Assembly: GCA_012838705.1 (NCBI GenBank)
Contig: DUOT01000015.1
Location: 18,367 to 82,366 of the forward strand
Source of the DNA: Acholeplasmataceae bacterium
GTDB taxonomy: Bacteria > Bacillota_I > Bacilli_A > ML615J-28 > CAG-698
DNA length: 64,000 nt
Reading direction: 5' to 3'
Shown: positions 33,027 through 56,418 of the stretch, one piece after another
Position numbering within the stretch: position 1 is the first letter of the stretch
Layout: the number at the start of each line of letters is the position of its first letter
Notes under the pieces: model-generated
The model's input: only the letters and a program-made list of their open reading frames with translations
Told to the model about the DNA's origin: nothing
The model's database searches: none
Program-made: the position numbers and the translations under genes

Positions 33027-33062
33027 ACAAAAAAAAGACTAACTCAAAATGAGTTAGTCTTA
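33027..33062 (-). terminator. strong intrinsic terminator after the lipoprotein SBP gene
   Basis: The hairpin AGACTAACTC-AAAAT-GAGTTAGTCT (33036-33060) is followed on the minus strand by a T8 run. Confidence 0.85.
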
Positions 33063-34842: not shown

Positions 34843-34946
34843 CTACAATTATACACTATATTTTTCTATTTTGCAAGACTTTTTCTACTGATTTTTTGTC
34901 TTTGGCACAAAATAAATGCCTTGATTTTTCAATCAATTAATTTTAA

Positions 34947-37173: not shown

Positions 37174-37213
37174 CTCAAAAGAAAGATGTCACTATATAGT
37201 GACATCTAATTTT

Positions 37214-38254: not shown

Positions 38255-39296
38255 AGTAGAACACCATCCTTGAGAGTATTAATAAGGTTAGACCCAATAT
38301 TGCTAAGCTTACCAAAGCAAATATCCATGACATCGCAGCATTTATTCCATATCCACTCAATTCCCCAAATCGTGCACTAGAGAATTTATCAGGAGTATAG
38401 AATGTATTAATAATTGAAATTAATGGAGATGTCAAGAACGAGTCAACAACTGTATATACAGCAGCAGTTAACATCATTGGCGACACCATTGGGAAGGTTA
38501 TCTTCCAGAACATTTCGTACTTTGTCGCACCTTCAATTTCTGCAGCTTCGTATAAATGTTTCGGTACAGATTGTAACGCAGCTAAGAAAATTAATATTTG
38601 AACACCAGAATAAGTAACAATTTCATAGATTTTTGCGGAAGCATTTCCTAAGAATCCAACAAGACCAACTGGAATATTTGCGTTGAGTAAGAAAGTTTCA
38701 AAGTTAAACATGCTTTCAAATAAATCCGCAGTACTATTTTGAATTACTAAGTCTAGTGCCTCACCTTCACTACCTAATGCAATATCAATTGCTTGTGAGT
38801 TAAAGATAACAGGCATGAAGAAGATTGCTCTTGCTAAAGCACGACCTTTAAATTTAGTATTTAATACAACTGCAATAATTAAGCTAAAGATAAGGATAAC
38901 TGGAATATCAGTAGCGATATCTATTATCGCAGTTACTAAGTGTTCCGTAAATGAACCATTAATATCAGCTGCTTCAGTAAAAGCATAAATATAATTTGAT
39001 AAGCCAATATAGGTAGATATAATACCACCTTCCGTAGGCTTGTTCTCTACAAATGATAAACTATAAATAATTGAATATCCGAAGGGGATTAAGAAGAAGT
39101 AAACAAAACCGATTAATAGAGGGATTAAAAATACAAATCCCCAGATGACTTTTCGTTTACGATATGGAATATGATCAGCTAAAAATTTTGGTATAAATGT
39201 TAGTCCGTCTTTAATTGCTCTCATTACTTTTGAGTCCATTATTTTGTAATATAGTTTTCTAATTTTTGATAGAATATTTCCAAAAAATTTAGTCAT
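38244..39296 (-). CDS. carbohydrate ABC transporter permease (MalF/CUT1 type)
   Basis: The EAA loop is …LYEAAEIEGATKYEMFWKITFP…, and the protein is polytopic. Confidence 0.8.
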   Translation of the reverse strand: MTKFFGNILSKIRKLYYKIMDSKVMRAIKDGLTFIPKFLADHIPYRKRKVIWGFVFLIPLLIGFVYFFLIPFGYSIIYSLSFVENKPTEGGIISTYIGLSNYIYAFTEAADINGSFTEHLVTAIIDIATDIPVILIFSLIIAVVLNTKFKGRALARAIFFMPVIFNSQAIDIALGSEGEALDLVIQNSTADLFESMFNFETFLLNANIPVGLVGFLGNASAKIYEIVTYSGVQILIFLAALQSVPKHLYEAAEIEGATKYEMFWKITFPMVSPMMLTAAVYTVVDSFLTSPLISIINTFYTPDKFSSARFGELSGYGINAAMSWIFALVSLAILGLTLLILSRMVFYYDE

Positions 39297-39297
39297 C

Positions 39298-42200
39298 TTA
39301 CTCCCCTCCTTCCTTTATATAACTATATTGTTCAATAACTTTTCCATTATAGTTATAAGATTTATTTGAACTATTTACAACTAAGACAAGATTTTCTTCA
39401 CCTGGAATTTGGTAAGTAACTTTTGATACGTTCGCATCAATATATTCATGATCTATTAATCTTCCTCGATGAATACCAATCTCATTTATACGGTTATTTA
39501 AGTTAACAATTGTATCTTTCCAGTTTTTATAATATGCTTTATAGTACATTGTATAATCTGTATCAAGTAATACATTTGGATCTTGATATGATAACTGGAA
39601 TTGAATATTTGATCCTGTTTCTAATGCCTTAGCAAAATACCAATCTGCACTCTTATCACTAACACCGTTAATATAATCAGTTGTATAGTCTACTAATCCA
39701 CTTACAACTAATTGATAGAATGGAATAGTATAATCAATAATTCCAAATTGAGTTGTATCTAATGGAACATCTACAATCAAATCAGCATATTGTAGTGCAT
39801 AATCAAATGGAGCTGATAGTTTCAATTTACCAATTTCATTTGCTGCAATTTGTAACGCTTGTAGTTGATATTCAGTTCCAGTGTGAGCATAAATTTCATT
39901 TTTCTTACGATAACTTCCTAATCGAATATTACCTAAATCAGGAATATACGCTCCTCCTACTTCTAATTTCTTGTAAGATGGTAACATATTTTCCAATAAT
40001 GATTTGTAATAATTAGGTGATAAGTAATATGTTGGAGTCATCTTCTTATCTGGCATTAAAGTTGCTAGATCAAACGGATAATGACGTGCATATGCATTTC
40101 CAACACCACGAGCTGTATATTTATTATTTCCAAATGGATATTTATACCCCTTAGTAGAACCAACATTAACTACAGGATAAAAATCGATATTTTGTGATTC
40201 TAAATATTCATTTAATTCTTTTAGACCTTGTGCTTTACCTAGTACTGGTGAGACCTTGAATTTTCTTGATGCTTTAGGTTCCATTTCATCCTTTGTCCAG
40301 CTATGATAACTTACACTAATCGTATTAACTCCACTTGTCAATAACTCCTTAACAACTTCTTCAGCTTCTTTAAATGTTGTTAAGCTATCATCTTTCATAT
40401 ATTTAATTCCTAAGAACATATCATATCTTTCAAACGCTCCAAGGAAATCAAGATTAACTAGGTTTTCCGTAGTGTTATCTTTTTCAACTAAACCATATTT
40501 AGTCATTAGATACTCACGGTATCTATTAGCTAATCCAACATAATTTAGTTCATCATCTTCAAGGAAAATATATTTATATACTAAATCATTTTTATATATT
40601 TTCTTTGTCCATTTTGGGAATGAAGAAACGTTCCAACCTGCTCCCGCTTCAACATCTTCTTTTTGTCTTACGCGAGAATTAAAATAAATTACGTTTCTTT
40701 CTAACCCTGTTCGAGCAGTGTCAGCATAAATAGAAGATTGAGCAGCACCTTTTTCTAGAATAGCTAGGACACCTTTATTTTGAGTATTATCGATATAACC
40801 GAACATATTAAACATAATCGGCATCATCGCAGGTGATGCATTCTTCTCTACAAATGCTTTTTCCTTTCCATATATATCTTTATTATATGCACTATAATTT
40901 AGTAAATCTTTTTTATTATTAAATTTGATTACAGCACCACTACCATCCGGAATAACCATCATTCCTTCTGCTTCGGTGTCTGTTGTTTTCGTTAATTCCG
41001 GAAGAACATCAATTGAAGTTAATTGGAAATTATGTTGATAATTTGGGTCATTTTTTCCTTCTTCATAGTCTTTTAATGTTTCTCCCATAATCGTTGCTTC
41101 AAGACCATCATCAGTTAATTTAAATTGAATTCCAACTTGGAATCTTTCAAGTGTAGTTGATGATTCAACACCGAAAATTAAATTATCTTTCGCAACTTGC
41201 TCTAATGAGTATAATTGTTGAATTGGTTTGTCATCTTCATCATATAAGAAATTACCATTTTCATCAACTGCATGGAATCCACCACGCATAACCGGATTTC
41301 CTTCTTCATCAAAAATTGGATATTTTGTTGTAATGTCAATTTGTTGATGGTTTGTATAAAGCATGCGATATAAGCTTTCTTGTTCTTGCGAACTTCTTAG
41401 CCCTCTTAACCAATATCTAAAATCATGATTTTGGTCTGGTGTCATAATTCGATAATAAGATTGCATTTGAGTCCAATATTGGTTAGAAAAGAATGGATTA
41501 ACATATACAGGTGAGTTATGACTATTTAAATGAGTACCATAACTTGTATATAAATCTGGATCTAATATAGTTAGTTCCCAAAAGTTTCCACCTGGTGATT
41601 TTTGTACTATCGCTAGTCCATTTTCTTCTAAATATTGAGCTGCAGCAGGTGAATATGTATATCCTTTTCCTGAATATTTTAAAGTCGCTGTTTTTGTTGC
41701 ACTATCTCTTATAATGTCATAACTAAATGTTGTATTACCACGTAATCTTCCATCTAGTGTTAATAGATTTGCTTTGAATGCGGCTCTATCACCATTAAAG
41801 TCTTCCATAGTTTCATCTTCAAAGACTGCAGCTTTAAATTTTTCTGGGAAATAGTCTCTATTAGCACTAAATCTACCAATTTCATATAATACTTGAACAG
41901 CATCTTCTAAATATCTTACTTTATAATGTCGTTCATTAATACCTGTTAATGTATTTTCAAAGTTAATACTATTATCGAAAACATTCATTTTTCCAGCAGG
42001 TCTACCAGTTGAAACGATATGATATGTAATAATTAAATTGGAAGCTTCATGACCAGTAGCACCTTTTTTAGCTGTTGTGAAAATGACCTCTCCAGCCTCA
42101 ATATTATTTGGCTGTGTTGGATCTAACTCCACAATCGAAACAATAGTACTTTCTTCATCAAAAATCATTGCATATTTTGCATTCTTAGCAACAACTTTAT

Positions 42201-42411
42201 TATTATCAAACTCAAAATCTACGTTGATTCTATTTCCTTCTTCGTCATATTGAACTGTATGGAAATTGATAAATTGACTTTCATCAAATTCTAGATTATT
42301 TGTTTCAAGGTAGGAAACTTTTAATCCTCCAATGAAATACAATCCTAATAATACTCCCACAAAAACGACAATCAATGAGGGAATGATAAATTTTAATCTC
42401 AGAAATTTCAT
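39298..42411 (-). CDS. large (1037 aa) N-terminally membrane-anchored extracellular protein of unknown function
   Basis: It has a single N-terminal TM segment (IIPSLIVVFVGVLLGLYFIGG), then about 1000 aa of soluble domain with no motif I can assign. It is translationally coupled to the downstream permease pair. Confidence 0.4.
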   Translation of the reverse strand: MKFLRLKFIIPSLIVVFVGVLLGLYFIGGLKVSYLETNNLEFDESQFINFHTVQYDEEGNRINVDFEFDNNKVVAKNAKYAMIFDEESTIVSIVELDPTQPNNIEAGEVIFTTAKKGATGHEASNLIITYHIVSTGRPAGKMNVFDNSINFENTLTGINERHYKVRYLEDAVQVLYEIGRFSANRDYFPEKFKAAVFEDETMEDFNGDRAAFKANLLTLDGRLRGNTTFSYDIIRDSATKTATLKYSGKGYTYSPAAAQYLEENGLAIVQKSPGGNFWELTILDPDLYTSYGTHLNSHNSPVYVNPFFSNQYWTQMQSYYRIMTPDQNHDFRYWLRGLRSSQEQESLYRMLYTNHQQIDITTKYPIFDEEGNPVMRGGFHAVDENGNFLYDEDDKPIQQLYSLEQVAKDNLIFGVESSTTLERFQVGIQFKLTDDGLEATIMGETLKDYEEGKNDPNYQHNFQLTSIDVLPELTKTTDTEAEGMMVIPDGSGAVIKFNNKKDLLNYSAYNKDIYGKEKAFVEKNASPAMMPIMFNMFGYIDNTQNKGVLAILEKGAAQSSIYADTARTGLERNVIYFNSRVRQKEDVEAGAGWNVSSFPKWTKKIYKNDLVYKYIFLEDDELNYVGLANRYREYLMTKYGLVEKDNTTENLVNLDFLGAFERYDMFLGIKYMKDDSLTTFKEAEEVVKELLTSGVNTISVSYHSWTKDEMEPKASRKFKVSPVLGKAQGLKELNEYLESQNIDFYPVVNVGSTKGYKYPFGNNKYTARGVGNAYARHYPFDLATLMPDKKMTPTYYLSPNYYKSLLENMLPSYKKLEVGGAYIPDLGNIRLGSYRKKNEIYAHTGTEYQLQALQIAANEIGKLKLSAPFDYALQYADLIVDVPLDTTQFGIIDYTIPFYQLVVSGLVDYTTDYINGVSDKSADWYFAKALETGSNIQFQLSYQDPNVLLDTDYTMYYKAYYKNWKDTIVNLNNRINEIGIHRGRLIDHEYIDANVSKVTYQIPGEENLVLVVNSSNKSYNYNGKVIEQYSYIKEGGE

Positions 42412-42423: not shown

Positions 42424-43131
42424 TTAAAATAAATCCCTTAGACTAATTTCTTGATATATTGTGTAGAAGAAACCATACATTTTTTGAAATAAGTCATAGA
42501 ATAGAATTAACATAAATATAATAATCGCTGCAGCAAGTACTGTTGCAATTAAGGTGATAACACATTTTGCTAATCCGTATTCATGTATCGAAATCATTCC
42601 CATGAAAATTAAATAACCCATGAGGAACGCTCCAATCGACATAACAAGATAGTAAAATGCAAGTTCTTCACCTGTTAAGAAATTACTTAGTATAATTCCT
42701 AAACCTGTTGCCCATAACATCGGATAAAGAGAATAACCAATCATTAAAAAGATTTCTTTCATTTTCCCTTTACCATCAAATAAGGTAGTAACAGACCAGT
42801 TTGCTACTGTAAATAGTACAATCGGTGCAATAATATAAAATATTTCTGCTATACTATTTAAATCTTTTAATTCATTATCATTTACTTCAAATCCAGAAAA
42901 CTGGAAACTTAATATATTTAATAGAATTAATATAATAATAAATGTAACTGCAACTGATACTTTTGCACGCTTTTCTCGTTTAAATTCTTCATATGCTTTT
43001 AGGGGATGAGATAGCATATATGCAGGAAATTTAATAAACTCCTCAACAAAATATATATATTTTGGTTTTAGTTTTTCTACAAAGTTTTTAATTTTATTTC
43101 CAAAACTTGTTTTTGTCTTTTGTGATGTCAT
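42424..43131 (-). CDS. Yip1-like polytopic membrane protein
   Basis: It is 235 aa. A cytoplasmic N-terminal segment of about 55 aa is followed by five predicted TM helices, the Yip1/DUF1282-type topology. Confidence 0.45.
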   Translation of the reverse strand: MTSQKTKTSFGNKIKNFVEKLKPKYIYFVEEFIKFPAYMLSHPLKAYEEFKREKRAKVSVAVTFIIILILLNILSFQFSGFEVNDNELKDLNSIAEIFYIIAPIVLFTVANWSVTTLFDGKGKMKEIFLMIGYSLYPMLWATGLGIILSNFLTGEELAFYYLVMSIGAFLMGYLIFMGMISIHEYGLAKCVITLIATVLAAAIIIFMLILFYDLFQKMYGFFYTIYQEISLRDLF

Positions 43132-45143
43132 TATTCATCCCCCATTCCTGTTTCTTCTTCCTTTGGTAAATGACGGTACTTCACCTTCTTATAAATAGAT
43201 AAACCTCCAAAGACAACAATTAATGTAATTGCAACTGGTGTAAAATATTTTCTAATTGCAACATTTCGGTGAAGTTTATAAGCACGAGAATATAGTTCAC
43301 GGTCATAACCAAACTTGAAATATTCCATTGCTTTTTTATAGTCTTTATTATTAAAGTACATTCTACCAATACCAATGTAACCATATTCATAGTTGGCATT
43401 TTGTTTTACAACTTCTTGCCAATATAAAGCAGCTTCATTTAAGTTACCTTGATATTCTAATTCAACAGCACGATTGATTAATTTACCAATATCAGACAGT
43501 TCATATAATACAATACTTTTTGTAGAATTATCTAAAACTGCAACATTTTCATGTACATATGCAAGTGATACTGGATTACTTAATACTGTTAATTGTGTAT
43601 TTCCAATATTTCCATCTGAATATCGTGAATTTCCAGACACATATAATAGGTTACCTTCATTATCATAAGTAAATAGTCGACCCATTTTACCGTCTACGAC
43701 AGTATATACTCCATATTCATTTACAGTAATTCCTGCAAATTTTGAAGGACCATTATATAATGCTAGAACTTGACCAATATGATATTTAACATCTCCCTTT
43801 GGCGGTTGATATCCATTACGACGTAAAATATCTTTACCTGTCGGATTAATTCTTTTAATCATATTGTTATCATCAGTAACTATATTTCGATCGTTAGTAA
43901 GGGCTTGAGATGTCGCATAAATAAACCCTTCCTTATCAACTGCCATACTTGTAAATGAAGTATTAATAATTGATTGTTGTTTTTTCAATTGTTCTTCAGT
44001 TGAGAAGTTTCTCCAGAATACTTCCCAAGGAGTAAGTGTTACATAGTTAACACCTGTGAAACGGTTAAATTCACCTTCACGACTGAATTGCATTATACCT
44101 TCATTTACGTTACTTGCGATAACATATATTCTTCCTGCTCGGTCAGTAACGATATCTATTGGTGTAATGTCACGACCTTCAAAAGTATATTCATCTTTAG
44201 GTGTTCTTACAATACGAACTACTTCATAAGTCTCACTATCGATAACGATAACTTGATTATTATTTCGGTCTGCAAGATATATAAGATCTTCACGTGTTGT
44301 AGGTGTTACAGCACGATATACTCCGTATAAACCATTTGCATGTAATTGAATTGATTCTTTACTACGTAAATCGGCAAGAGTAAATCCATAATGTTGTTCT
44401 TCGATTACTGGTGGTTCTGGTTCGTTTGTTACAGTAACTTGAATTTTAACTGTAACAATTGGAGCTACTTCTTTTTCTTCATCATCTTCTTCGTTTTGCT
44501 CAATTGCTTCATATAATCCACCATTAATTGTTACTCTTCCTAATCCCTTAGCAACAATAAATGGTTTTCCATCACGAATCTCAATATCGGCAATACTATC
44601 ATTTGTTGATGACCATTTAATTTCATAATCAAAATCAATGTCACCAAGTTGATATGTTATTTCTTGTTCACTTAAATCTTCAAATTCTTCATTATCATAA
44701 ACTAGATTAATGAATTCCATTTCATGTGGTATTGAAAACAATACATCACGCGCAATTAAATATTGTCCACCACTTTTATATTCTTTTAACTGATCATCAG
44801 TAAATTTGCTTGGTTTTAATGTAAATGATGATACTGTTTTTAATAACTTAAAATTATCATCAAAAACAAATAATTTATTTGAATTTGCGTCAACAACATA
44901 AATTGTTTTATTTCCTTCACTATCAGTAAAAGTAAATATATCTCTCGGGTTTGTAAAATCATCAAAGGCAATTCCTAAATCTTGTGCAGTATACGGTTTT
45001 TGATTAATTGTAAATCCTACAGTTGAATAAATAGGATCACCACGATGATCATATGTATAACCAACAGCAGCCTTTATATTTATTGCCGTTAATGTAACCA
45101 TAAAGGTTACTATGGCAATTAAAAATTTTATTCCTTTTCTCAT
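43131..45143 (-). CDS. secreted NHL-repeat beta-propeller + TPR-like protein with C-terminal transmembrane anchor
   Basis: It has a signal peptide (FLIAIVTFMVTLTAINIKA). Repeated segments are DRNNNQVIVIDSETYEVVRIV, DRAGRIYVIASN and VDKEGFIYATSQ (NHL/YVTN-like blades). A TPR-like segment near the C-terminus is …EYQGNLNEAALYWQEVVKQNANYEYGYIGIGRMYFNNKDYKKAMEYF…. A final TM helix is VAITLIVVFGGLSIY. Confidence 0.5.
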   Translation of the reverse strand: MRKGIKFLIAIVTFMVTLTAINIKAAVGYTYDHRGDPIYSTVGFTINQKPYTAQDLGIAFDDFTNPRDIFTFTDSEGNKTIYVVDANSNKLFVFDDNFKLLKTVSSFTLKPSKFTDDQLKEYKSGGQYLIARDVLFSIPHEMEFINLVYDNEEFEDLSEQEITYQLGDIDFDYEIKWSSTNDSIADIEIRDGKPFIVAKGLGRVTINGGLYEAIEQNEEDDEEKEVAPIVTVKIQVTVTNEPEPPVIEEQHYGFTLADLRSKESIQLHANGLYGVYRAVTPTTREDLIYLADRNNNQVIVIDSETYEVVRIVRTPKDEYTFEGRDITPIDIVTDRAGRIYVIASNVNEGIMQFSREGEFNRFTGVNYVTLTPWEVFWRNFSTEEQLKKQQSIINTSFTSMAVDKEGFIYATSQALTNDRNIVTDDNNMIKRINPTGKDILRRNGYQPPKGDVKYHIGQVLALYNGPSKFAGITVNEYGVYTVVDGKMGRLFTYDNEGNLLYVSGNSRYSDGNIGNTQLTVLSNPVSLAYVHENVAVLDNSTKSIVLYELSDIGKLINRAVELEYQGNLNEAALYWQEVVKQNANYEYGYIGIGRMYFNNKDYKKAMEYFKFGYDRELYSRAYKLHRNVAIRKYFTPVAITLIVVFGGLSIYKKVKYRHLPKEEETGMGDE

Positions 45144-45152
45144 AATCTCCTC

Positions 45153-46148
45153 CTACTTCATTCCCGAATGAGCCATCGTGTCCATAATTTGTGTTTGAGA
45201 TAGTACGAAGACTGTCACCGGAACTAGTATCATGATAAAACTTACAGCCGCAAGAGTACCTTGACGAGCTGGACCCGCTGTTGCAATTTGGCTTAATGCA
45301 TAACCAACCATCTTTAAGTCTTCACTATAAATATATGTTGAACCCGATGTTAACCATAAGTATTGGAAACTTAAAATGATTAGCGTTAACCATGCCGGCT
45401 TTACAAGTGGCATTATGATCTTCCAATAGATTTTAAACTCACCAGCACCATCAATTTTTGCTGATTCAATTAAACTAGTTGGAATATTTGTCATAAATTG
45501 TTGCATTAAGAAAAGTCCTAAAGTAGAAGAGAAAGCTGGTAATATTAATACCCAATATGTATCAATTAAACCAATTTCATTAAAAATTAAATATAGTGGA
45601 ATAGCTGTAATAGCTGGGTTAAATAGTAATGAATATCTAATCAAACCAGATAAGAATTTTCCACCAGGAACATTTCTTTTAGCTAATGGATAAGCACACA
45701 TTGATGCAACAATAACATGTCCAACAGTTCCTAGAAGCGTTACGAATATTGTATTAAAGAAGTAACGTGATACTGGTACTAATGAACTTCCTAAAATATT
45801 TGCTAAGTCAGAAAAGTTTGTTAACGTAGGGTTACGAACAAAAATACGCGGTGGGAATAAGAATATTTCATCTAGTGGTTTGAAGGCATTATTAACTGTT
45901 AGAATTAGTGGTAATAAACTAAATGTACCACATACAGCTAGAAATACAAATAATGTAATATCCCCTTTTAAAGTTCTATTAACACGTTTCTTTCTTTTAG
46001 AACGCCTTTTTATTGTAAATGCATTTATTTCCGAAAAAGGACGTGAATCGATTCTTTTTGCTCTTATTACGTTTTTATCGTACTTTTTCTTTTCCTTTTT
46101 AGGCTTTTTAATTTTTTGCTTTTTAATTTCTTCAGTCATTCTAATCAC
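45153..46148 (-). CDS. carbohydrate ABC transporter permease (MalG type) with ~60-aa Lys/Arg-rich N-terminal extension
   Basis: The permease core has the EAA loop …LIESAKIDGAGEFKIYWKIIMP…. The N-terminus is MTEEIKKQKIKKPKKEKKKYDK…RRSKRKKRVNR. Confidence 0.75.
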   Translation of the reverse strand: MIRMTEEIKKQKIKKPKKEKKKYDKNVIRAKRIDSRPFSEINAFTIKRRSKRKKRVNRTLKGDITLFVFLAVCGTFSLLPLILTVNNAFKPLDEIFLFPPRIFVRNPTLTNFSDLANILGSSLVPVSRYFFNTIFVTLLGTVGHVIVASMCAYPLAKRNVPGGKFLSGLIRYSLLFNPAITAIPLYLIFNEIGLIDTYWVLILPAFSSTLGLFLMQQFMTNIPTSLIESAKIDGAGEFKIYWKIIMPLVKPAWLTLIILSFQYLWLTSGSTYIYSEDLKMVGYALSQIATAGPARQGTLAAVSFIMILVPVTVFVLSQTQIMDTMAHSGMK

Positions 46149-47136
46149 CCACCCTACTAATAATTTTTCTTATAAGTTTATTTAGCAGAATCGCTGCAAT
46201 AAATAGGATTGTTGCAATTGCTGATGCATAACCCATTTCAAATCGTGTTAAACCATAGTCTGTTAAGTGGTTAACGATTGTATGACCTGCATAGTCAACA
46301 GTAGGGAAGCCAGCCAATAATACTGTAATACTACCGATACCTAATGTATTTGAAATTTGAATTACGGCACTAAATACAAGTTGTGGTTTCATTTCTGGTA
46401 ATGTAATGTACCATAATTCTTGCCAACGATTCTTAACACCGTCGATTGCTGCTGCTTCATAAAGTGTTTTATTAACACTTTTAAGTCCGGCAAGTAGTGA
46501 TAAGAAGTTCACCCCTAAGCTCATCCATAATTGAACAATAATTATGATTGGTAAAATATATTTTGTATTTTGGAGCCAGGTTATCGGTTCATTTATGAAT
46601 CCCCAATCCAAGAGGAACGCATTCGCATATCCATAAATATCACTTGAGAAAATGATTGTCCAAATGAGAATACCATTTCCCGCTAGTGATGGTGCATAGA
46701 ATGCAAGAGTTACAATAGGACGAATTTTTGGTGGTAATTCATTAATTAACCAAGCGAAAACGAATGCAAGTATATATCCAATTGGACCAGTAATTACAGA
46801 TAAAATAAGTGTATTTTTTAAAGCAGTAATAAAGATGTCATCATTAAGAAATAAACTAAGATAATTACTAAACCCAACAAAACGGGGCGCTTCGAGGACA
46901 TTGAAGTAAGTAAAGCTTAGTAATAAACTCATGACAACAGGTACTACTGTAAATAATGTAAATAGAAGTAAGAATGGAAACATCATTAAGTAAAGAGATC
47001 TATTTAAATAGAGTTTTCTTCTTAATGGTTTCTTTCTACTCCATTGATCAATTTTTTGGCTAGTTCTTTCTTTCCACTTTTTAAATTTATCCCATTGGCG
47101 TGCAAACCAATTTTTATTTGTTATAGTACTTTGCAT
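46141..47136 (-). CDS. carbohydrate ABC transporter permease (MalF type)
   Basis: The EAA loop is …LYEAAAIDGVKNRWQELWYITLP…. It overlaps the next permease by 8 nt. Confidence 0.8.
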   Translation of the reverse strand: MQSTITNKNWFARQWDKFKKWKERTSQKIDQWSRKKPLRRKLYLNRSLYLMMFPFLLLFTLFTVVPVVMSLLLSFTYFNVLEAPRFVGFSNYLSLFLNDDIFITALKNTLILSVITGPIGYILAFVFAWLINELPPKIRPIVTLAFYAPSLAGNGILIWTIIFSSDIYGYANAFLLDWGFINEPITWLQNTKYILPIIIIVQLWMSLGVNFLSLLAGLKSVNKTLYEAAAIDGVKNRWQELWYITLPEMKPQLVFSAVIQISNTLGIGSITVLLAGFPTVDYAGHTIVNHLTDYGLTRFEMGYASAIATILFIAAILLNKLIRKIISRVGD

Positions 47137-47145
47137 AATATCCTC

Positions 47146-50100
47146 CTACTCCCCAGTTGGCACTGGTAGCCCAAACTCTTCGCGTTTTCTAGTAATTTCA
47201 TGATTAATCATAACGATATATTCTTCAAATGTTTGGCGTGGATTAATGTTATTATTAACAACTTTACGGAACGCATTTTCAAGGTTACGTCCTGTATAAT
47301 AACCACCTGGAACTTCAGGTACTCCAACAGTCCAAGGGAATTGGGCATTTAATATTTCTAATTCTTCAACTGTCCAAGGTAAACGTGAGAATGCTTCAAT
47401 GTTTGGAGTTGCATGACGTGCAGCAGTACCGATAATTGATTCAAGTTCACGGTTATATGCTGTTTGTGTATCAGCATCTGTCCACCACTTCATAAATTCC
47501 CATGCAGCTTCCGGAACATTTGTAGTTTTAAGCATGATAACTGCTGTTCCACTTGTTGCAGTTGAACGGTCAATAGTTCCATCTTCTTGACGAGTACCAG
47601 GCATATTTGCAAATGTCCATTTACCTCTAATTTCTGGAGCTGATACCATTAAAGTATTGTAAACATTGTAATCACTAATACCAATTGGCATCTCACCAGT
47701 ACGGAAACGGTTGATAAATGTAGCCCATGTAATCGTTAATTCGAAACTATAATTTGTATAGAATTCTGTCCAGAATTCAAATGCTTGCATTGATTCTTCT
47801 GAGTCAAAATTGGAGATTACATATTCTTCACCACGGTCATTTAATTCTGTACGATAGAATGAACCTCCAGTTTGGAATAATCGCGATGCGAAAATACCAT
47901 TTACAACACTTGCAGCACCTAGTGTATTTAGTGGCAAGTAGAATTTCATGTTATGAATTTGTAATTCTGGTATTAAGTCAATTACTTCTTCCCATGTATC
48001 AGGAACTTCCCAACCATAATCTTCAAAAATATCAGTACGATAAAAGATAACAGGGAAAAGTTGTGTATTTGGTAATGCATAATACCCTTCATGTCCTGTA
48101 CGATCCTTATATGAATACGGTACGATAGCACTAGGGTAGAAGCGTTCAATTACTTCTTCAAAATCATCAAATTTTGTTAAGTCCATAACTGCTCCACGAA
48201 GAGCATAGTTTACAGGAATACCATTAGCAACGTTTATTGCAACGTCAGGACCACGACCAGCTAGAGTCGCATTTAATAATACTTCCGGTGCAACAACTTT
48301 CAATTCAACATTAACATCACTTTCAAAAGTAGAGTCGATTAATGTACGAATTGAGTTTCCTTGTTCACGACCAACTGATGGGTCAGTTAAGAACCATACT
48401 TCTACAGTTTCATCGTCACCTTTTTCTACTGTTGCTCCAATAGCTGAATAATCAAAGAAGAATGATTTAAAGAAGCTTTTCATATTAAACCATGTTCCAA
48501 CAAAGAAATTAGGATTTGCTTTTGGTAATTTATAATCATCACTATGAACTAGTAAATAGTCTACCGTTAATGCTTGTTCACTTACAGTAAGAACCCAAGT
48601 TCCAAGTGAAGAAATATTTGTACTAAATGAACGCATATTACGTTGAATCTTACGTGGTTGTTTGATAAAGTCGCGTAATTGTAAAGCCATTGTTTCTAGA
48701 CTCGCCGACTCACCACTCTTTTCACCACTTATTCTTGTAATTGTTTTCGCTACATCTTCAATTTCTACTATACAATGTTCAAATGTTGGAATTAATTCAG
48801 GAATATTATCTGTTAATCGATAATCGATATATTTATCAGGGTTAACCCCAATCTTAGCAATTATCGCACGATACATTCTATTTAATTCATCAATTACTTG
48901 TTGGATACGATTGATTTGTGAACCATAATCACCTAATGTAACTTCAAGAGTGATAGTATGTGTACCTTCTTCTAAGTAGAAATAGAATGGTTCATCTTCA
49001 GTACCTAATGTTACAATGTTCCAATCACTTGCATAAGTAAATTTTGCATTTTGTGCTTCCGCAAATGGAATTTTATCATCAATATATACTTTACGTGTTG
49101 AGAATAAACCACGGTTAGAACTTTGACGAGCACGTAAAGAGATATTATAAAGTCCACTTTCCGGAACAGTAAATTCCCAAGTAATCCAGTCACCTGGAGT
49201 TGACCATTTTGCTCCACCGATTGAGTTTAATATAACCTTTACAGGATCTGCAGGTGAGTTGTAAGCACTTGAACGGTCATGAATTGCATAGATTGTAGAA
49301 GAGGAACGATAAACAGAATCTTCACCTTGGATTTTTGGATCTCCTTCAACGTAATATCCTGTTATTCCCCCAGTAACTTTTTTATATCCTTTAGCTTCAT
49401 ATTCAGCTTTTACTTCTTCATATGATTTATATTCTTCTTTACTTGTCACATGAATATTAAAGATACTCATTGTTTCACGAACAGATTCAAATGTAATAGT
49501 GTTTTTACCTTTTGATAAATATACTAAATAAGGCTCTGTTACATAACCGATTTTATCTTTAACATATTGCTCACGGCGAATTCTGTGTTCTGCTTGAACT
49601 GGTCTAATTTCATTTCCATTTAAGTCAATAATTTTATCGCCGCCATCAGTCCATACTCTTTGGAAAGTAATATTATTTAAGTCGTCATATGGAACTTCTC
49701 CATTAACAAGGATCTTTCTTTCAATATCAACACCATTATCTTCTTCAGGAAGGTAATCAACTTTGATATTGTAGAAACCTGCCTCTTCAATATTTACTTC
49801 CCAGGTAGCTGAGCCACTTGAAGTAGTTTTCAAAGCTTTTTCACCATATTTGTTAGTATAATCAACTACTACAAAATCAGTCTCAATTGCGTCTTCACCC
49901 GGAATTACAATATCAACATTTTTCGGATAGTTTTGAGGATATTTATCTAAATATTCTTTATAATCACCGAGTACTAATACTGACTCAGGAATTGTTGCAT
50001 TTGAATATTTATGGCCATCATCAAAACTTTTTACGACAACACTAATAAATAAAAATACTAATAATACTAAAAGAGTCCATAAAATTGTCTTTTTTATAAT

Positions 50101-50175
50101 TCCTTCTCTAGTTAAGAATTTAGTAATTGCGTTTTTCACCTTTTTAAAATTATTAGTTTTTATTCTTTCTTCCAT
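47146..50175 (-). CDS. 1009-aa membrane-anchored fusion: N-terminal TM + two tandem carbohydrate-binding-like repeats + C-terminal extracellular solute-binding (SBP family 1-like) domain
   Basis: The TM anchor is ILWTLLVLLVFLFISVVV. Two homologous repeats are …SGSATWEVNIEEAGFYNIKVDY… and …PGDWITWEFTVPESGLYNISLRARQ…. The C-terminal roughly 450 aa has SBP_bac_1-like features (…VEVWFLTDPSVGREQGNSIRTLIDSTFESDVNVELKVV…RGPDVAIN…). It immediately precedes a permease pair. Confidence 0.5.
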   Translation of the reverse strand: MEERIKTNNFKKVKNAITKFLTREGIIKKTILWTLLVLLVFLFISVVVKSFDDGHKYSNATIPESVLVLGDYKEYLDKYPQNYPKNVDIVIPGEDAIETDFVVVDYTNKYGEKALKTTSSGSATWEVNIEEAGFYNIKVDYLPEEDNGVDIERKILVNGEVPYDDLNNITFQRVWTDGGDKIIDLNGNEIRPVQAEHRIRREQYVKDKIGYVTEPYLVYLSKGKNTITFESVRETMSIFNIHVTSKEEYKSYEEVKAEYEAKGYKKVTGGITGYYVEGDPKIQGEDSVYRSSSTIYAIHDRSSAYNSPADPVKVILNSIGGAKWSTPGDWITWEFTVPESGLYNISLRARQSSNRGLFSTRKVYIDDKIPFAEAQNAKFTYASDWNIVTLGTEDEPFYFYLEEGTHTITLEVTLGDYGSQINRIQQVIDELNRMYRAIIAKIGVNPDKYIDYRLTDNIPELIPTFEHCIVEIEDVAKTITRISGEKSGESASLETMALQLRDFIKQPRKIQRNMRSFSTNISSLGTWVLTVSEQALTVDYLLVHSDDYKLPKANPNFFVGTWFNMKSFFKSFFFDYSAIGATVEKGDDETVEVWFLTDPSVGREQGNSIRTLIDSTFESDVNVELKVVAPEVLLNATLAGRGPDVAINVANGIPVNYALRGAVMDLTKFDDFEEVIERFYPSAIVPYSYKDRTGHEGYYALPNTQLFPVIFYRTDIFEDYGWEVPDTWEEVIDLIPELQIHNMKFYLPLNTLGAASVVNGIFASRLFQTGGSFYRTELNDRGEEYVISNFDSEESMQAFEFWTEFYTNYSFELTITWATFINRFRTGEMPIGISDYNVYNTLMVSAPEIRGKWTFANMPGTRQEDGTIDRSTATSGTAVIMLKTTNVPEAAWEFMKWWTDADTQTAYNRELESIIGTAARHATPNIEAFSRLPWTVEELEILNAQFPWTVGVPEVPGGYYTGRNLENAFRKVVNNNINPRQTFEEYIVMINHEITRKREEFGLPVPTGE

Positions 50176-52009
50176 ACATTCCTCCTAGTAACTTTTGCGC
50201 AACCTCAATAAATATATGAATGTACTCACAACTCTTATCAAGTCCACCACTCTTATTTCTTTGTTGCCACAAATATTTTAAGCCATTTATCAAATCATTT
50301 TTACTTGCAACTACTTCTTCAAGTAATTTTATTCTATAAGACTCATCTACTTCTTCATTTAATGAAAGATTAACCTTGTACAATGTTTTAATGAAATTAA
50401 CAGCATATGTAATTTCTTCTTTAATTAATTCATCTACTTTTGCAAGTTTTAATTGGCGAAGTGAAAAGTCAAAGAAATCATTAATTATTGTATATTTCTC
50501 AAAAGATAAAATCTTATCATGTAATTTATCTTTTAAGTATTCCAGATCTTCATTTTCTTTAATCATGTTATGAGCCCACATAAATACTTGGAACGCTTGT
50601 GTCATATTACTTGTATAATAGTTTTCAAAACGATAATAATTAGCTAAGTCAAGTATTAAGTCACCCATAATTTTTGTATCATCTTTAAATATATGATCAT
50701 TTAAATAATGTTTTAGTAAATAATAAGTTCCTGTTTCACAACGATAACTTAAAAGGCCTGCATAAACTAGTGAAGCATAAATTGTTGGTAGTGATTGTAG
50801 GTGTCCAAAATCACCCCAGTTTGTTAGTAATATTCCTTCACCACCATATAGTTTTGTAAAGAAACATGAACTAGTAATTGTTGATAAAGCATCATAAGTT
50901 CTTCCTAGGAAACTACACCAACTTGAAGTTCCCGGTGCAGCCATAAATTTAATTCCAGTTTCTTTTAATTTCAATAAATGCTTTTCAAATGGATAATTAG
51001 CATCATATCCCCAATCAACAAAAATAACATCTTTAGGAATACGATCTAATACATCATCATGACGAATAAGAACGTCACCCCAAATTAAAGGGGTTTTATT
51101 ATATTTTCTAATTTCTTCAATAGCTTTTAATGCATAATCTAAATAAACGTTACCCAAACCTTCTTTTTCTACCGCTTCTTTAGATTTACCTTTACCTAAC
51201 TCAAATGGTTCATCAAAGTTCATGTTGAAGTATTTTGAATTAGAAAGTGGAAGCATATCTGCATACATCTTTTTAATTAATTCAAATGATCTTTCATCAC
51301 GTGGATCTAAAGTTGATGGAGCACGATGACGTCCCCATAAAAAGATTCCATCAGGTGCTTCTGCTAGATCTTTAAATTCATCAAGTTCAAGCCATTGTGC
51401 CATATGTCCGAAACCATTTTGGTTAGGAACAAAATCAATATATTTAGAATTCGCATATCTTTCAATTTCTTGATATTCTTCAACAGTTATATATGAGTTT
51501 TCTGTTAAGTACTTTTTGAACGATTTATATTCAAAAGAAAACCCTTCCACATACAACTCAAAATGATTCATCTTTAAATCGCTCATGATATCAAGAATAT
51601 GCTTAACTGTTTCTAGTTTTGGAACTTTATTACGACTAATGTCAAACATAAAGCCACGAACCTTTAAATCTGGTTCGTCATAAATATATAAGCATTGCAT
51701 TTCTTGACGTATAAGTTGTTTAAGGGTTTTCACAGCATAATAAAAGCCGACTTCTGTACTGGCATATGCAGTAATATTTGAATCGGAAACTTTTAATTCA
51801 TATGCTTGCTCAGGCAAGTCCTTAAATAAAAAAATGATATTACTTTCGTTTCGATCACCAATTTTACAATCAGTAAATGATTTCAATTCGTTAAAAACGT
51901 TTTCCATTTCTTGCTCAAAAAAAACAATTTTCTCATCCAAAACAAGCTTTCCTTCTTGCATTATAACTTGTTTTGGTCTAGGATAAATCATATTCATTTT
52001 TAACCCCAC
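50153..52009 (-). CDS. GH20-like beta-N-acetylhexosaminidase
   Basis: RGFMFDISRNKVP…HFELYVEG… resembles the GH20 catalytic-domain motif RG(L/F)M(L/F)D(V/I)SR…H. A candidate catalytic D-E pair is present (…NMNFDEPFELG…). It is the first gene of the long operon. Confidence 0.55.
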   Translation of the reverse strand: MGLKMNMIYPRPKQVIMQEGKLVLDEKIVFFEQEMENVFNELKSFTDCKIGDRNESNIIFLFKDLPEQAYELKVSDSNITAYASTEVGFYYAVKTLKQLIRQEMQCLYIYDEPDLKVRGFMFDISRNKVPKLETVKHILDIMSDLKMNHFELYVEGFSFEYKSFKKYLTENSYITVEEYQEIERYANSKYIDFVPNQNGFGHMAQWLELDEFKDLAEAPDGIFLWGRHRAPSTLDPRDERSFELIKKMYADMLPLSNSKYFNMNFDEPFELGKGKSKEAVEKEGLGNVYLDYALKAIEEIRKYNKTPLIWGDVLIRHDDVLDRIPKDVIFVDWGYDANYPFEKHLLKLKETGIKFMAAPGTSSWCSFLGRTYDALSTITSSCFFTKLYGGEGILLTNWGDFGHLQSLPTIYASLVYAGLLSYRCETGTYYLLKHYLNDHIFKDDTKIMGDLILDLANYYRFENYYTSNMTQAFQVFMWAHNMIKENEDLEYLKDKLHDKILSFEKYTIINDFFDFSLRQLKLAKVDELIKEEITYAVNFIKTLYKVNLSLNEEVDESYRIKLLEEVVASKNDLINGLKYLWQQRNKSGGLDKSCEYIHIFIEVAQKLLGGMYGRKNKN

Positions 52010-52024
52010 TTTTCATACTTCTTT

Positions 52025-52060
52025 ATAGAGAATAAGAAATATAAGTATATTTTCTCTATG
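52025..52060 (-). promoter_or_regulatory. imperfect palindrome (candidate operator) between the -10 element and the GH20 start codon
   Basis: TATAGAGAAtaAGAAATATA-ag-TATATTTtCTCTATg has nested inverted repeats TAGAGAA/TTCTCTA and AAATATA/TATATTT. It directly abuts a TTGATA-17-TATAAT promoter, whose -10 is at 52064-52069 on the minus strand. Confidence 0.3.
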
Positions 52061-52169
52061 CTTATTATACATTAAAACATAGTTTTTATCAAGGATAAAT
52101 TTCACTTTTATGTCTAGGTAATATTTAGCATGCAACAATATATATAACAAATAGGAAATAATCAATGGG

Positions 52170-52208
52170 AAAAGTCTTGGTTTTACCCAAGACCTTTCTT
52201 TTTTACTA
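52170..52208. terminator. hairpin with flanking A/T runs; likely terminator for the small membrane-protein gene, also terminator-like on the plus strand
   Basis: The stem is GTCTTGG-TTTTAC-CCAAGAC (52174-52193). CTTTCTTTTTT follows on the plus strand and TTTTCC on the minus strand. Confidence 0.5.
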
Positions 52209-52215
52209 TGATTAA

Positions 52216-56409: not shown

Positions 56410-56418
56410 ATTATCCTC

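What the first reader, a model, noticed from the sequence alone, without database searches (positions are those of the whole stretch)
42424..50175. Sugar-ABC-permease-associated ectoprotein module with no characterised function
Six genes sit in one tightly coupled co-directional block. They encode a 1009-aa TM-anchored SBP fusion, two permeases, a secreted NHL/TPR beta-propeller with a C-terminal anchor, a Yip1-like membrane protein and a 1037-aa TM-anchored ectoprotein. Only the permeases and the SBP-like portion have assignable function. The remaining roughly 2000 aa of cell-surface protein have no assignable motif. The co-occurrence of a Yip1-like protein, a beta-propeller/TPR protein and a giant ectoprotein with a CUT1-type transporter suggests a glycan capture or processing complex on the cell surface. 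I recall seeing similar gene sets in automated annotations of other Firmicutes, but I know of no functional study.
Basis: partly seen in the sequence, partly recalled or inferred. Interest (0 to 1): 0.75.

Follow-up and report, generated by a model that had tools for sequence, protein, structure and literature searches.

The report
Conserved eight-gene surface sugar-uptake module
A block of genes in a wall-less bacterium encodes two sugar importers with three dedicated membrane-anchored surface proteins, one shaped like a sugar-cleaving enzyme; the same eight genes recur in the same order in hundreds of Firmicutes species, and nobody has studied them.

Summary
All six ORFs exist with exactly the stated lengths, on the minus strand and tightly coupled. 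The stated coordinates omit the 1037-aa gene (39298-42411).

The conserved unit is eight genes: giant SBP, permA, permB, propeller/TPR protein, Yip1, DUF5696, permC, permD. In 164 related loci, seeded from either DUF5696 or the propeller, 93 carry all eight in this order. Another 70 are collinear until the contig ends. There is no real exception.

The 670-aa protein is an NHL propeller with an Ig insert, TPR and a C-terminal TM helix. It is fused to Yip1 in 13 of 152 loci.

Here the module sits in a GlcNAc/MurNAc (peptidoglycan) salvage island. Most likely it is a surface glycan capture, trimming and dual-import machine. No literature was found on it. It is a new variant of a known kind, and the function is inferred.

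The parts
52064..52092 (-). Best sigma-70-like promoter match (TTGATA-17-TATAAT, 11/12), about 55 nt upstream of the GH20 start. It is the putative operon promoter.
   Evidence: This is a consensus match only; the region as a whole has fewer promoter-like matches than its shuffles.
50153..52009 (-). GH20 beta-N-acetylhexosaminidase-like protein, 618 aa, with no signal peptide or TM segment, so cytoplasmic. It overlaps the next gene by 23 nt. It is a lineage-specific flank, not part of the universal core.
   Evidence: Pfam Glyco_hydro_20 and 20b. PDB GH20 hits reach E 5e-13. No TM segment. Present upstream mainly in Acholeplasma/Bacilli-type loci.
47146..50175 (-). Core gene 1, the giant substrate-binding protein (1009 aa). 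It has an N-terminal TM anchor (residues 30-48), two homologous ~160-aa CBM-like beta-sandwich modules (~88-230 and ~279-411), a linker (unmodelled) and a family-1 SBP domain (~587-922).
   Evidence: SBP_bac_1 and SBP_bac_8, E 1e-20. Weak Golvesin_C and CBM_35 hits. Internal repeat, BLASTP E 5e-10. Best PDB hit is Lin1841, E 3.5e-11. TM segment.
46141..47136 (-). Core gene 2, permease A (331 aa, MalF/UgpA-like) with an EAA loop (LYEAAAIDG).
   Evidence: BPD_transp_1. NCBIfam GlcT/UgpA-like hits. Sequence.
45153..46148 (-). Core gene 3, permease B (331 aa, MalG/UgpE-like) with an EAA loop (LIESAKIDG) and a very basic ~60-aa N-terminal extension.
   Evidence: BPD_transp_1. NCBIfam GlcU/UgpE-like hits. 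Sequence.
43131..45143 (-). Core gene 4, the propeller/TPR ectoprotein (670 aa). It has a signal peptide, a six-bladed NHL-type beta-propeller interrupted by an Ig-like insert (~140-240), TPR helices (551-611), a C-terminal TM helix (633-651) and a short conserved tail (EETGxGDE).
   Evidence: AlphaFold model, pLDDT 84, pTM 0.77. Foldseek hits to TRIM NHL domains, the PknD sensor and BtuG. Profile hits to NHL and TPR structures. 373 homologues with E <= 1e-5.
42424..43131 (-). Core gene 5, a Yip1-family polytopic membrane protein (235 aa, 4-5 TM). Its start overlaps the propeller gene's stop by 1 nt. In 13 of 152 related loci it forms one ORF with the propeller protein.
   Evidence: Pfam Yip1, E 1e-12, 48.7 bits against a cut-off of 28.6. 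TM segments. Fusions.
39298..42411 (-). Core gene 6, the DUF5696 ectoprotein (1037 aa). It has an N-terminal TM anchor (9-27), a lineage-specific N-terminal region (~40-400) and a GH129/GH101-like beta-sandwich + (beta/alpha)8 barrel + C-terminal beta-sandwich. The PDGSG loop (488-492) is invariant among the 62 aligned homologues. The candidate catalytic residues are D825 and D870.
38244..39296 (-). Core gene 7, permease C (350 aa, MalF/UgpA-like) with an EAA loop (LYEAAEIEG).
   Evidence: BPD_transp_1. NCBIfam UgpA-like hit. Always follows DUF5696.
37214..38254 (-). Core gene 8, permease D (346 aa, MalG/UgpE-like) with an EAA loop (LEESAEIDG).
   Evidence: BPD_transp_1. NCBIfam UgpE-like hit. 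Always follows permease C.
37184..37207 (-). Ten-pair hairpin with a weak T tail between permease D and GH3. It is a possible partial terminator or processing site at the end of the core.
   Evidence: Pattern match only.
35674..37173 (-). GH3 beta-N-acetylglucosaminidase (499 aa, NagZ/YbbD-type, no signal peptide). It is a lineage-specific flank.
   Evidence: Glyco_hydro_3, E 8e-86. PDB 6k5j GH3 beta-GlcNAc-ase, E 1e-92. Follows the core in Acholeplasma- and Izemoplasma-type loci.
34947..35669 (-). NagB glucosamine-6-phosphate deaminase (240 aa). It is a lineage-specific flank.
   Evidence: Pfam Glucosamine_iso, E 9e-26. Synteny.
33074..34741 (-). Lipoprotein (555 aa) with a lipobox (LVGC), a Big_2 domain and a ~450-aa domain of unknown family. 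It may be the binding protein for the second permease pair. It is absent from Ruminococcus-type loci.
   Evidence: Only Big_2 is found. No similarity to the 1009-aa SBP. Homologues lie up- or downstream of the core in mollicute and Paenibacillus loci.
33035..33061 (-). Strong intrinsic-terminator-like hairpin (12 pairs plus a T run) after the lipoprotein gene.

Best explanation
The finding is the central part of a conserved eight-gene operon module. It encodes a membrane-embedded apparatus for capturing a complex glycan at the cell surface and importing its fragments.

Components shown by the analysis:
- Two complete CUT1-type translocator halves, permA/permB and permC/permD. All four permeases carry EAA loops, which in ABC importers dock the ATPase.
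- A giant membrane-anchored binding protein: two CBM-like modules followed by a family-1 SBP domain.
- A DUF5696 ectoprotein with the three-domain fold of retaining alpha-glycosidases of the GH129/GH101 type.
- A propeller-Ig-TPR ectoprotein whose C-terminal TM helix leads into a Yip1 membrane protein. The two are fused in several lineages.

Proposed mechanism (inferred):
1. The CBM-like modules and the propeller hold a polymeric or oligomeric glycan at the membrane.
2. In this lineage DUF5696 keeps an Asp at the end of barrel strand 4 (D825) and an Asp after strand 5 (D870). It trims or cleaves the glycan.
3. The SBP domain feeds permA/B. PermC/D is fed by the downstream lipoprotein, or directly by DUF5696.
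4. The propeller-TPR/Yip1 unit acts as the membrane scaffold that keeps the ectoproteins next to the translocators, as Yip1-family YknW does for the YknXYZ ABC complex.
5. ATP hydrolysis comes from a shared MsmK/MalK-type ATPase encoded elsewhere.

In this Acholeplasmataceae genome the imported oligosaccharides contain amino sugars. Cytoplasmic GH20 and GH3 hexosaminidases and NagB are co-transcribed with the module, and the operon lies inside a peptidoglycan/MurNAc salvage island.
For: Gene content and coupling.

Invariant synteny in 164 loci, seeded from two different genes. These gave 93 complete loci, 70 truncated but collinear loci, and no exception. The taxa include Acholeplasmatales, Izemoplasmatales, Erysipelotrichales-like Bacilli, Paenibacillus and Ruminococcus/Oscillospiraceae.

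Nucleophile motif: NagBb-like 'CAYLDVF' against the window's 'GAYIPDLG'. In the 42-sequence clade that includes the window, D870 is invariant and D825 is at least 90% conserved.

Propeller-Yip1 fusion in 13 of 152 loci, with no other neighbouring pair ever fused.

Yip1 precedent as an ABC-complex assembly factor: PMC4887032.

SBP domain. CBM-like tandem modules.

A MalK/UgpC-type ATPase is encoded inside the locus in L165.

Amino-sugar context: GH20, GH3 and NagB and NamZ, MupG, AnmK, a MurQ-like protein and LdcA nearby. GH3 and NagB follow the core in most mollicute-type loci.
Against: No experiment exists for any component.

The barrel acids are not conserved across the family. Izemoplasma-type proteins lack both, Paenibacillus-type proteins keep only D825, and Ruminococcus-type proteins vary. 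The operon is nevertheless identical in all of them, so the conserved role of DUF5696 may not be hydrolysis.

The residues invariant across the 62 aligned homologues (PDGSG loop, Y514) lie in the beta-sandwich, not in the barrel.

The GH129/GH101/GH13-type fold points to alpha-linkages. The co-transcribed GH20 and GH3 enzymes and the surrounding island act on beta-linked HexNAc/MurNAc, so the substrate of DUF5696 is not obvious.

There is no ATPase and no regulator in the window.

The 555-aa lipoprotein is not recognisable as an SBP, and Ruminococcus-type loci have no second binding protein at all. How permC/D is loaded is therefore unknown.
Confidence: 0.6

Rival explanations
1. DUF5696 is a non-catalytic, glycosidase-shaped subunit. 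Together with the propeller-TPR/Yip1 unit it forms a stable supercomplex with the two ABC translocators. It would act in substrate capture or hand-off, or in assembly, rather than cleavage. This would be functionally comparable to the GH13-like heavy chains (4F2hc, rBAT) of eukaryotic heteromeric amino-acid transporters, or to the surface glycan-binding proteins of Bacteroidetes utilisomes.
Confidence: 0.25
2. The module serves the cell's own envelope, by recycling or remodelling a self-made surface glycan such as a capsule, lipoglycan or wall polymer. It would not forage for external glycans.
For: In Ruminococcus-type genomes the module stands alone among housekeeping genes, next to glmS, with no catabolic GH nearby. 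In other Clostridia it is followed by a two-component system. It is retained in both walled and wall-less Firmicutes.
Against: SBP-dependent CUT1 systems are importers. In mollicute lineages the module is consistently co-transcribed with catabolic GH3 and NagB, and here with a complete MurNAc/GlcNAc degradation island in an organism that makes no peptidoglycan.
Confidence: 0.1
3. The block is a fortuitous juxtaposition of an ordinary sugar ABC operon with unrelated surface-protein genes.
For: None beyond the lack of functional annotation for three of the genes.
Against: Identical order in 164 of 164 loci from distant Firmicutes, seeded from two different genes. Overlapping start and stop codons. 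Propeller-Yip1 gene fusions.
Confidence: 0.02

Closest known systems
GH129 alpha-N-acetylgalactosaminidase NagBb (Bifidobacterium bifidum, PDB 5wzn) and the GH129-like alpha-1,3-(3,6-anhydro)-D-galactosidase DagB/ZgGH129 (Zobellia, PDB 5opq/8rzk); more distantly GH101 endo-alpha-GalNAc-ases
   Different: Identity is only 11-13%. No GH Pfam or NCBIfam model matches. The acid/base position holds Asp rather than Glu, and neither acid is conserved across the DUF5696 family. The protein is membrane-anchored, carries an extra ~370-aa N-terminal region, and is always encoded inside a dual ABC-importer operon. NagBb and DagB are stand-alone soluble exo-glycosidases.
CUT1-family sugar ABC importers (MalEFGK2, UgpABCE, NgcEFG, Listeria Lin1841 system) and Gram-positive polysaccharide utilisation loci
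   Same: Family-1 SBP domain. MalF/MalG-type permease pairs with EAA loops. ATPase usually encoded elsewhere. Co-located cytoplasmic exo-glycosidases.
   Different: Two permease pairs in one invariant operon. The SBP is a ~1000-aa protein with tandem CBM-like modules, TM-anchored in this genome but with a cleavable-looking signal peptide in walled Clostridia. Three obligate extra proteins (propeller/TPR, Yip1, DUF5696) are not, to my knowledge, part of any described CUT1 system.
Bacillus YknWXYZ, with the Yip1-family protein YknW as accessory subunit of an ABC transporter
   Same: A Yip1-family polytopic membrane protein is encoded with, and needed for assembly of, an ABC transporter complex that also includes a single-pass anchored ectoprotein (PMC4887032).
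   Different: YknYZ is a MacB-type exporter with a membrane-fusion protein. Here the partners are type-I importer permeases, and the Yip1 protein is coupled (sometimes fused) to a propeller-TPR ectodomain.
Bacteroidetes Sus-like 'utilisomes' (SusCD with surface glycan-binding proteins and a surface glycosidase)
   Same: Functional analogy only. Surface capture, surface enzyme and transporter are encoded together, and here are inferred to work as one complex.
   Different: No homology of the transport components. It is a cytoplasmic-membrane ABC system in monoderm or wall-less cells rather than a TonB-dependent outer-membrane system.
4F2hc/CD98hc and rBAT heavy chains of heteromeric amino-acid transporters
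   Same: A single-pass N-terminal anchor followed by a glycosidase-fold ectodomain. The catalytic residues are dispensable or lost (in part of the DUF5696 family). Association with a polytopic transporter, which is only inferred here.

Membership tests
Pfam DUF5696 (PF18952) | Full-length match to the family HMM above the gathering score | tested here: met
   E 1.5e-137 and 460 bits against a cut-off of 25.6; residues 404-1031 match profile positions 2-612 of 612. All 38 homologues scanned also match.
CAZy GH129 (and GH101) | Significant sequence similarity to family members or family HMMs | tested here: not met
   No Pfam or NCBIfam GH hit for the window protein or 37 homologues. phmmer against PDB finds nothing. 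Only a profile hit of E 4e-5 over ~140 residues. Structural alignments show 11-13% identity.
CAZy GH129 (and GH101) | Three-domain fold: N beta-sandwich, (beta/alpha)8 barrel, C beta-sandwich | tested here: met
CAZy GH129 (and GH101) | Catalytic nucleophile Asp at the end of barrel strand 4 (NagBb D435, DagB D486) | tested here: inconclusive
   The window has D825 in 'GAYIPDLG', against the NagBb-like 'CAYLDVF'. It is at least 90% conserved in the window's clade. It is replaced by S, T, G, Y or L in other clades. The residue mapping rests on motif and secondary structure, not on a residue-level structural alignment.
CAZy GH129 (and GH101) | Acid/base Glu (NagBb E478) | tested here: inconclusive
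   At the comparable spacing the window has D870 ('SAPFDYA'), which is invariant in its clade. It is G, A or S elsewhere. DagB itself does not conserve this residue (PMC5698469).
CAZy GH129 (and GH101) | Demonstrated glycosidase activity | not testable with these tools
   Needs enzymology.
CUT1 ABC sugar importer | Two MalF/MalG-type permeases (BPD_transp_1) with EAA loops | tested here: met
   Met twice over. All four permeases hit BPD_transp_1 above its cut-off and carry EAAxxDG-like loops (sequences).
CUT1 ABC sugar importer | Family-1 extracellular solute-binding protein | tested here: met
   The 1009-aa protein hits SBP_bac_1 and SBP_bac_8 at E 1e-20. The Lin1841 structure matches at E 3.5e-11.
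CUT1 ABC sugar importer | MalK/MsmK-type ATPase | tested here: not met
   None among the 40 largest ORFs of the window scanned with Pfam. A UgpC/MalK-type gene lies in the related locus L165 only. A trans-encoded shared ATPase is usual for this family (established knowledge), so this does not exclude membership.
Yip1 family (PF04893) | HMM match above threshold and a polytopic membrane topology | tested here: met
   48.7 bits against a cut-off of 28.6. Four or five hydrophobic segments.
NHL-repeat beta-propeller / TPR proteins | Six-bladed NHL-type propeller fold; TPR helices | tested here: met
   Fold: Foldseek E 1e-11 to 1e-10 against TRIM, Thin and PknD NHL domains. Profile hits to NHL and TPR structures. 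Individual Pfam repeat hits are below the gathering scores.
Gram-positive PUL / Sus-like utilisome (functional class) | Co-localised transporter, glycan-binding module, glycoside hydrolase and regulator, induced by the substrate | tested here: inconclusive
   The transporter, CBM-like modules and GH20, GH3 and a GH-like protein are present. No regulator is found in the window. Induction cannot be tested here.

The most novel reading that the evidence does not exclude
The eight proteins form one stable membrane supercomplex, a monoderm 'utilisome'. In it a glycosidase-fold protein (DUF5696) has been repurposed in many lineages as a non-catalytic subunit that loads the second ABC translocator directly, in place of a classical binding protein. 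The propeller-TPR/Yip1 unit would be the organising scaffold. This would be a new architecture for ABC importers, and a bacterial parallel to the glycosidase-like heavy chains of eukaryotic transporters.
Probability: 0.25. Interest if true: 0.85.

Novelty: new variant of a known kind. Interest (0 to 1): 0.66.

Why it matters
Sugar ABC importers of Firmicutes are thought of as a binding protein, two permeases and a shared ATPase. Here an invariant eight-gene unit adds a second translocator and three dedicated membrane proteins.

The unit is widespread. It was found at 571 or more genomic loci among the GTDB species representatives. Its DUF5696 component alone comprises about 5,900 clusters at 50% identity. 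The carriers include rumen and gut Ruminococcus, soil Paenibacillus and wall-less mollicute relatives.

None of the three accessory proteins has been studied. If the module is a surface capture, trimming and import machine, it would be the monoderm counterpart of the Bacteroidetes utilisome, and it would define a new GH129-related enzyme or pseudo-enzyme family.

In this genome it also appears to be the entry gate of a peptidoglycan/amino-sugar scavenging island in an organism that has no cell wall. That bears on how such bacteria live off microbial necromass.

Three cultivable carriers make the question directly testable: Acholeplasma equifetale ATCC 29724, Haploplasma modicum ATCC 29102 and Paenibacillus daejeonensis DSM 15491.

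Tried and rejected
- Direct sequence search of the 1037-aa protein against PDB found nothing. Only the profile of its homologues reached GH129 entries, and weakly.
- Literature searches for 'DUF5696' and 'PF18952' returned zero papers. Searches combining Yip1, ABC transporter, SBP and NHL, or Yip1 and Ruminococcus, found nothing relevant. A search on Acholeplasmataceae and peptidoglycan was also unhelpful, and 'ZgGH129' returned one irrelevant paper.
- I tried to obtain full-length GH129 sequences for a profile-profile residue mapping by searching with a 141-aa NagBb fragment. Only short metagenomic fragments came back. They still supplied the nucleophile motif.
- A Pfam scan of 38 DUF5696 homologues looking for any GH family hit found none.
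- The afdb50 fold library was unavailable.
- Model coordinates are not exposed. I therefore could not measure whether the invariant D489 loop reaches the barrel pocket.
- I tested whether the 555-aa lipoprotein is a paralogue of the giant SBP. There is no similarity and no SBP Pfam hit even at E <= 1.
- I looked for an ABC ATPase, a regulator or a riboswitch in the window and found none.
- I considered and rejected the idea that the block is a chance juxtaposition.
- I considered that the propeller might be an enzyme, for example lactonase-, PAL- or virginiamycin-lyase-like. Such hits are far weaker than those to generic NHL binding domains, and no catalytic family matched.

Full report
**Observation**

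- 1009 aa (47146-50175)
- 331 aa (46141-47136)
- 331 aa (45153-46148)
- 670 aa (43131-45143)
- 235 aa (42424-43131)
- 1037 aa (39298-42411)

Spacing in transcription order is +9, -8, +9, -1 and +12 nt.

The stated interval (42424-50175) leaves out the 1037-aa gene. The block also continues. Two further permease genes follow (350 aa, 38244-39296; 346 aa, 37214-38254) at +1 and -11 nt. A GH20 gene (50153-52009) overlaps the 1009-aa gene by 23 nt. GH3 (35674-37173), NagB (34947-35669) and a 555-aa lipoprotein (33074-34741) lie downstream.

The best promoter-like site sits just upstream of GH20 (52092-52064). A hairpin lies between the last permease gene and GH3. A strong terminator-like hairpin follows the lipoprotein gene. 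These are pattern matches only.

An identical copy of the 1037-aa protein is on record from an Acholeplasmataceae metagenome-assembled genome. The window has about 30% G+C.

**What the proteins are**

Pfam and NCBIfam confirm several assignments:
- The 1009-aa protein has a family-1 SBP domain (E 1e-20). Its best solved relative is the Listeria sophoro-oligosaccharide binder Lin1841.
- There are four BPD_transp_1 permeases of MalF/UgpA and MalG/UgpE type. Each has an EAA loop, visible in the sequences.
- The 235-aa protein matches Yip1 above threshold.
- The 670-aa protein gives only sub-threshold NHL and TPR hits.
- The 1037-aa protein is a full-length match to Pfam DUF5696 (E 1.5e-137). The claim that it has no assignable motif is therefore wrong, although the family is uncharacterised.

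The N-terminal half of the 1009-aa protein contains two homologous ~160-aa modules (BLASTP E 5e-10). They give weak CBM35 and Golvesin_C hits.

Hydropathy supports N-terminal TM anchors on the 1009-aa and 1037-aa proteins. It also supports a signal peptide plus a C-terminal TM helix on the 670-aa protein.

**Structure of the 670-aa protein**

The prediction used 61 homologues and reached pLDDT 84 and pTM 0.77. The model is a six-bladed propeller interrupted by an Ig-like insert, followed by TPR helices and a long C-terminal helix that contains the TM segment.

Foldseek finds NHL propellers: TRIM proteins, the PknD sensor domain and the BtuG surface lipoproteins. No enzyme family is suggested.

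**Structure of the 1037-aa protein**

The prediction used 62 homologues and reached pLDDT 92.6 and pTM 0.85.
- Foldseek agrees (E 5e-24 and 3e-20, then GH101 at 1e-14).
- A sequence profile of the homologues hits the same PDB entries weakly (E 4e-5 to 2e-4 over ~140 residues).
- NagBb-like metagenomic fragments carry precomputed hits to both the GH101 and DUF5696 Pfam models.

DUF5696 is therefore a remote relative of GH129/GH101. No GH model claims it or 37 of its homologues.

**Catalytic residues**

A NagBb-like fragment shows the nucleophile motif 'CAYLDVF'. The window protein has 'GAYIPDLG' at the end of the predicted strand 4, which gives D825. It has 'SAPFDYA' after strand 5, which gives D870, at the spacing of NagBb's acid/base residue.

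In the 42-sequence clade that includes the window, D870 is invariant and D825 is at least 90% conserved.

A profile-profile alignment to the Clostridia-type clade (probability 100, E 8e-93) places S or T at position 825 and A or S at position 870.

Across 138 loci the pattern follows lineage:
- Acholeplasma/Bacilli type has both acids.
- Izemoplasma/Mariniplasma type has neither.
- Paenibacillus/termite-gut type has D825 only, and some carry PNGSG instead of PDGSG.
- Ruminococcus type is variable.

Among the 62 aligned homologues, the invariant residues are G483, P488, D489, G490, G492 and Y514, all in the beta-sandwich before the barrel. In the wider set of loci, D489 is replaced by N in some termite-gut sequences.

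In DagB, residues of the N-terminal sandwich, including an essential Asp, complete the active site. DagB also does not conserve NagBb's acid/base residue (PMC5698469). The invariant loop could therefore be catalytic, but I could not measure distances in the model.

Catalytic competence is plausible for this lineage and open for the family as a whole.

**Gene neighbourhood**

A scan of one genome per GTDB species with the DUF5696 alignment found at least 571 loci that encode a relative. I examined 80 of them by tblastn with the window's proteins.

A reciprocal scan of metagenome contigs seeded with the propeller alignment gave 80 more loci. Six look-ups of distant DUF5696 proteins added the rest.

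Of the 164 loci scored, 93 contain giant SBP, permA, permB, propeller, Yip1, DUF5696, permC and permD in that order. Another 70 are collinear until the contig ends. The single flagged locus merely has an extra permease hit upstream of a complete core.

The carriers are Acholeplasmatales, Izemoplasmatales and other Bacilli MAGs, Acholeplasma equifetale, Haploplasma modicum, Paenibacillus species, and Ruminococcus/Oscillospiraceae.

The propeller and Yip1 genes are a single ORF in 13 of 152 loci from several lineages. No other neighbouring pair is ever fused.

The flanks vary:
- GH20 upstream with GH3, NagB and the lipoprotein downstream in Acholeplasma-type loci.
- The lipoprotein upstream in Izemoplasma- and Paenibacillus-type loci.
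- Nothing carbohydrate-related in Ruminococcus-type loci, where the module sits among housekeeping genes.
- Elsewhere, a two-component system or a ROK gene.

The DUF5696 family comprises 5,917 clusters at 50% identity with E <= 1e-3, and 3,774 with E <= 1e-30.

**Context in this window**

Pfam scans of the neighbouring ORFs show a long minus-strand island for salvage of peptidoglycan and amino sugars. It contains:
- two GH18 genes
- a DAP-decarboxylase/M19-dipeptidase fusion
- a beta-lactamase-family protein and a GNAT
- an LD-carboxypeptidase
- a GHL10 protein
- then the operon described here
- DUF624
- the exo-muramidase NamZ
- a second GH3
- MupG
- a BadF/BadG-type kinase
- AnmK
- a MurQ-like SIS protein
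- an FAD-linked oxidase with ETF subunits, which could oxidise the D-lactate released by MurQ (this last link is my inference)

None of the GH20, GH3 and NagB proteins has a signal peptide. They should therefore act on imported oligosaccharides.

No ABC ATPase gene and no regulator gene were found among the 40 largest ORFs scanned with Pfam, and no riboswitch was found in the window.

**Interpretation**

The shown facts are:
- two complete permease pairs
- a CBM-bearing anchored SBP
- a GH129-like anchored ectoprotein
- a propeller-TPR protein physically tied to a Yip1 membrane protein
- invariant co-inheritance of all eight genes

I infer a surface apparatus that captures a glycan, trims it (at least in lineages that retain the acids) and imports the products through two translocators. 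These would be powered by a trans-encoded MsmK-type ATPase. One related locus does encode a UgpC/MalK-type ATPase.

I also infer that the propeller-TPR/Yip1 unit acts as a scaffold. The precedent is Yip1-family YknW, which modulates assembly of the YknXYZ ABC complex (PMC4887032).

In walled Clostridia the giant SBP and DUF5696 begin with cleavable-looking signal peptides, while the propeller keeps its TM helix. This would give such a scaffold something to do.

The substrate in this genome is probably an amino-sugar-containing cell-wall glycan. However, the alpha-glycosidase-type fold of DUF5696 does not match the beta-linked substrates of the flanking enzymes, so its exact target is unknown.

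The main rival is that DUF5696 is a non-catalytic subunit that captures or hands over substrate, perhaps directly to permC/D. Two observations favour this: the barrel acids are lost in whole lineages, and Ruminococcus-type loci lack any second binding protein.

**Novelty**

The components belong to known superfamilies, and the system is clearly a relative of CUT1 sugar importers and Gram-positive polysaccharide utilisation loci.

Several features are not part of any described system that I could find, and no paper in the library mentions DUF5696:
- the obligate eight-gene architecture
- the dual translocators
- the GH129-like membrane protein
- the propeller-TPR/Yip1 unit

I rate it a new variant of a known kind, of fairly high interest, with the function still inferred.

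Noticed in passing
window 24913-34741 and 52610-63341 (minus strand): The operon is embedded in a large peptidoglycan/amino-sugar salvage island, in a MAG assigned to the wall-less Acholeplasmataceae. Its genes are two GH18, a DAP-decarboxylase/M19-dipeptidase fusion (728 aa), a beta-lactamase-family protein, a GNAT, an LD-carboxypeptidase, GHL10, DUF624, NamZ, a second GH3, MupG, a BadF/G-type kinase, AnmK and a MurQ-like SIS protein. This suggests feeding on the cell walls of other bacteria.
   Followed up: partly
window 21426-24804 (minus strand): An FAD-linked oxidase (GlcD/D-lactate dehydrogenase-like, 465 aa) and ETF alpha and beta subunits lie close downstream of the MurQ-like gene, separated from it by an alpha/beta-hydrolase gene (24913-35635 region: 24913-25635). 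They could oxidise the D-lactate released from MurNAc-6-phosphate. This functional link is my inference.
   Followed up: no
L061, L062, L063, L075, L078, L080, L166 (about 300-2700 nt in each locus): In a Ruminococcus subclade two LolD/MacB/FtsE-type ABC ATPase genes (226 and 314 aa) sit directly upstream of the giant SBP gene on the same strand. No FtsX-type permease was seen in the one locus with called genes (L166). It is unexplained whether they energise the module or pair with the Yip1 unit, as YknY does with YknW.
   Followed up: partly
L141, L145-L154, L156, L161, L163 (termite-gut and bioreactor metagenome loci): The otherwise invariant PDGSG loop of DUF5696 reads PNGSG in these loci. 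The Asp that is invariant in all 62 aligned homologues is therefore replaced in one lineage.
   Followed up: no
window 33074-34741: The 555-aa lipoprotein occupies the position of a binding protein and is syntenic with the module in mollicute and Paenibacillus loci. It matches no SBP family even at E <= 1. Only its Big_2 domain is recognised.
   Followed up: partly
window 43131-43160 (C-terminus of the 670-aa protein): The short cytoplasmic tail after the C-terminal TM helix ends in a conserved EETGxGDE motif in the Acholeplasma/Bacilli clade. The motif is absent from Ruminococcus-type proteins, and in the fusion proteins the link to Yip1 takes its place.
   Followed up: no
window 52010-52609: A ~600-nt non-coding gap lies between queH and the GH20 gene. 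It holds the best promoter-like site. It has no Rfam match, and no regulator gene is nearby.
   Followed up: partly
L014, L031, L045, L052: A few loci with typical mollicute-type modules sit in MAGs labelled Bacteroidales, Falkowbacteria, Lachnospiraceae or Halieaceae. These are probably mis-binned contigs rather than real occurrences outside Firmicutes and mollicutes.
   Followed up: no
window 18927-21209: A 760-aa protein has a Big_2 domain and an atrophied Big_2 domain and is otherwise unassigned. It is another large surface-type protein near the salvage island.
   Followed up: no
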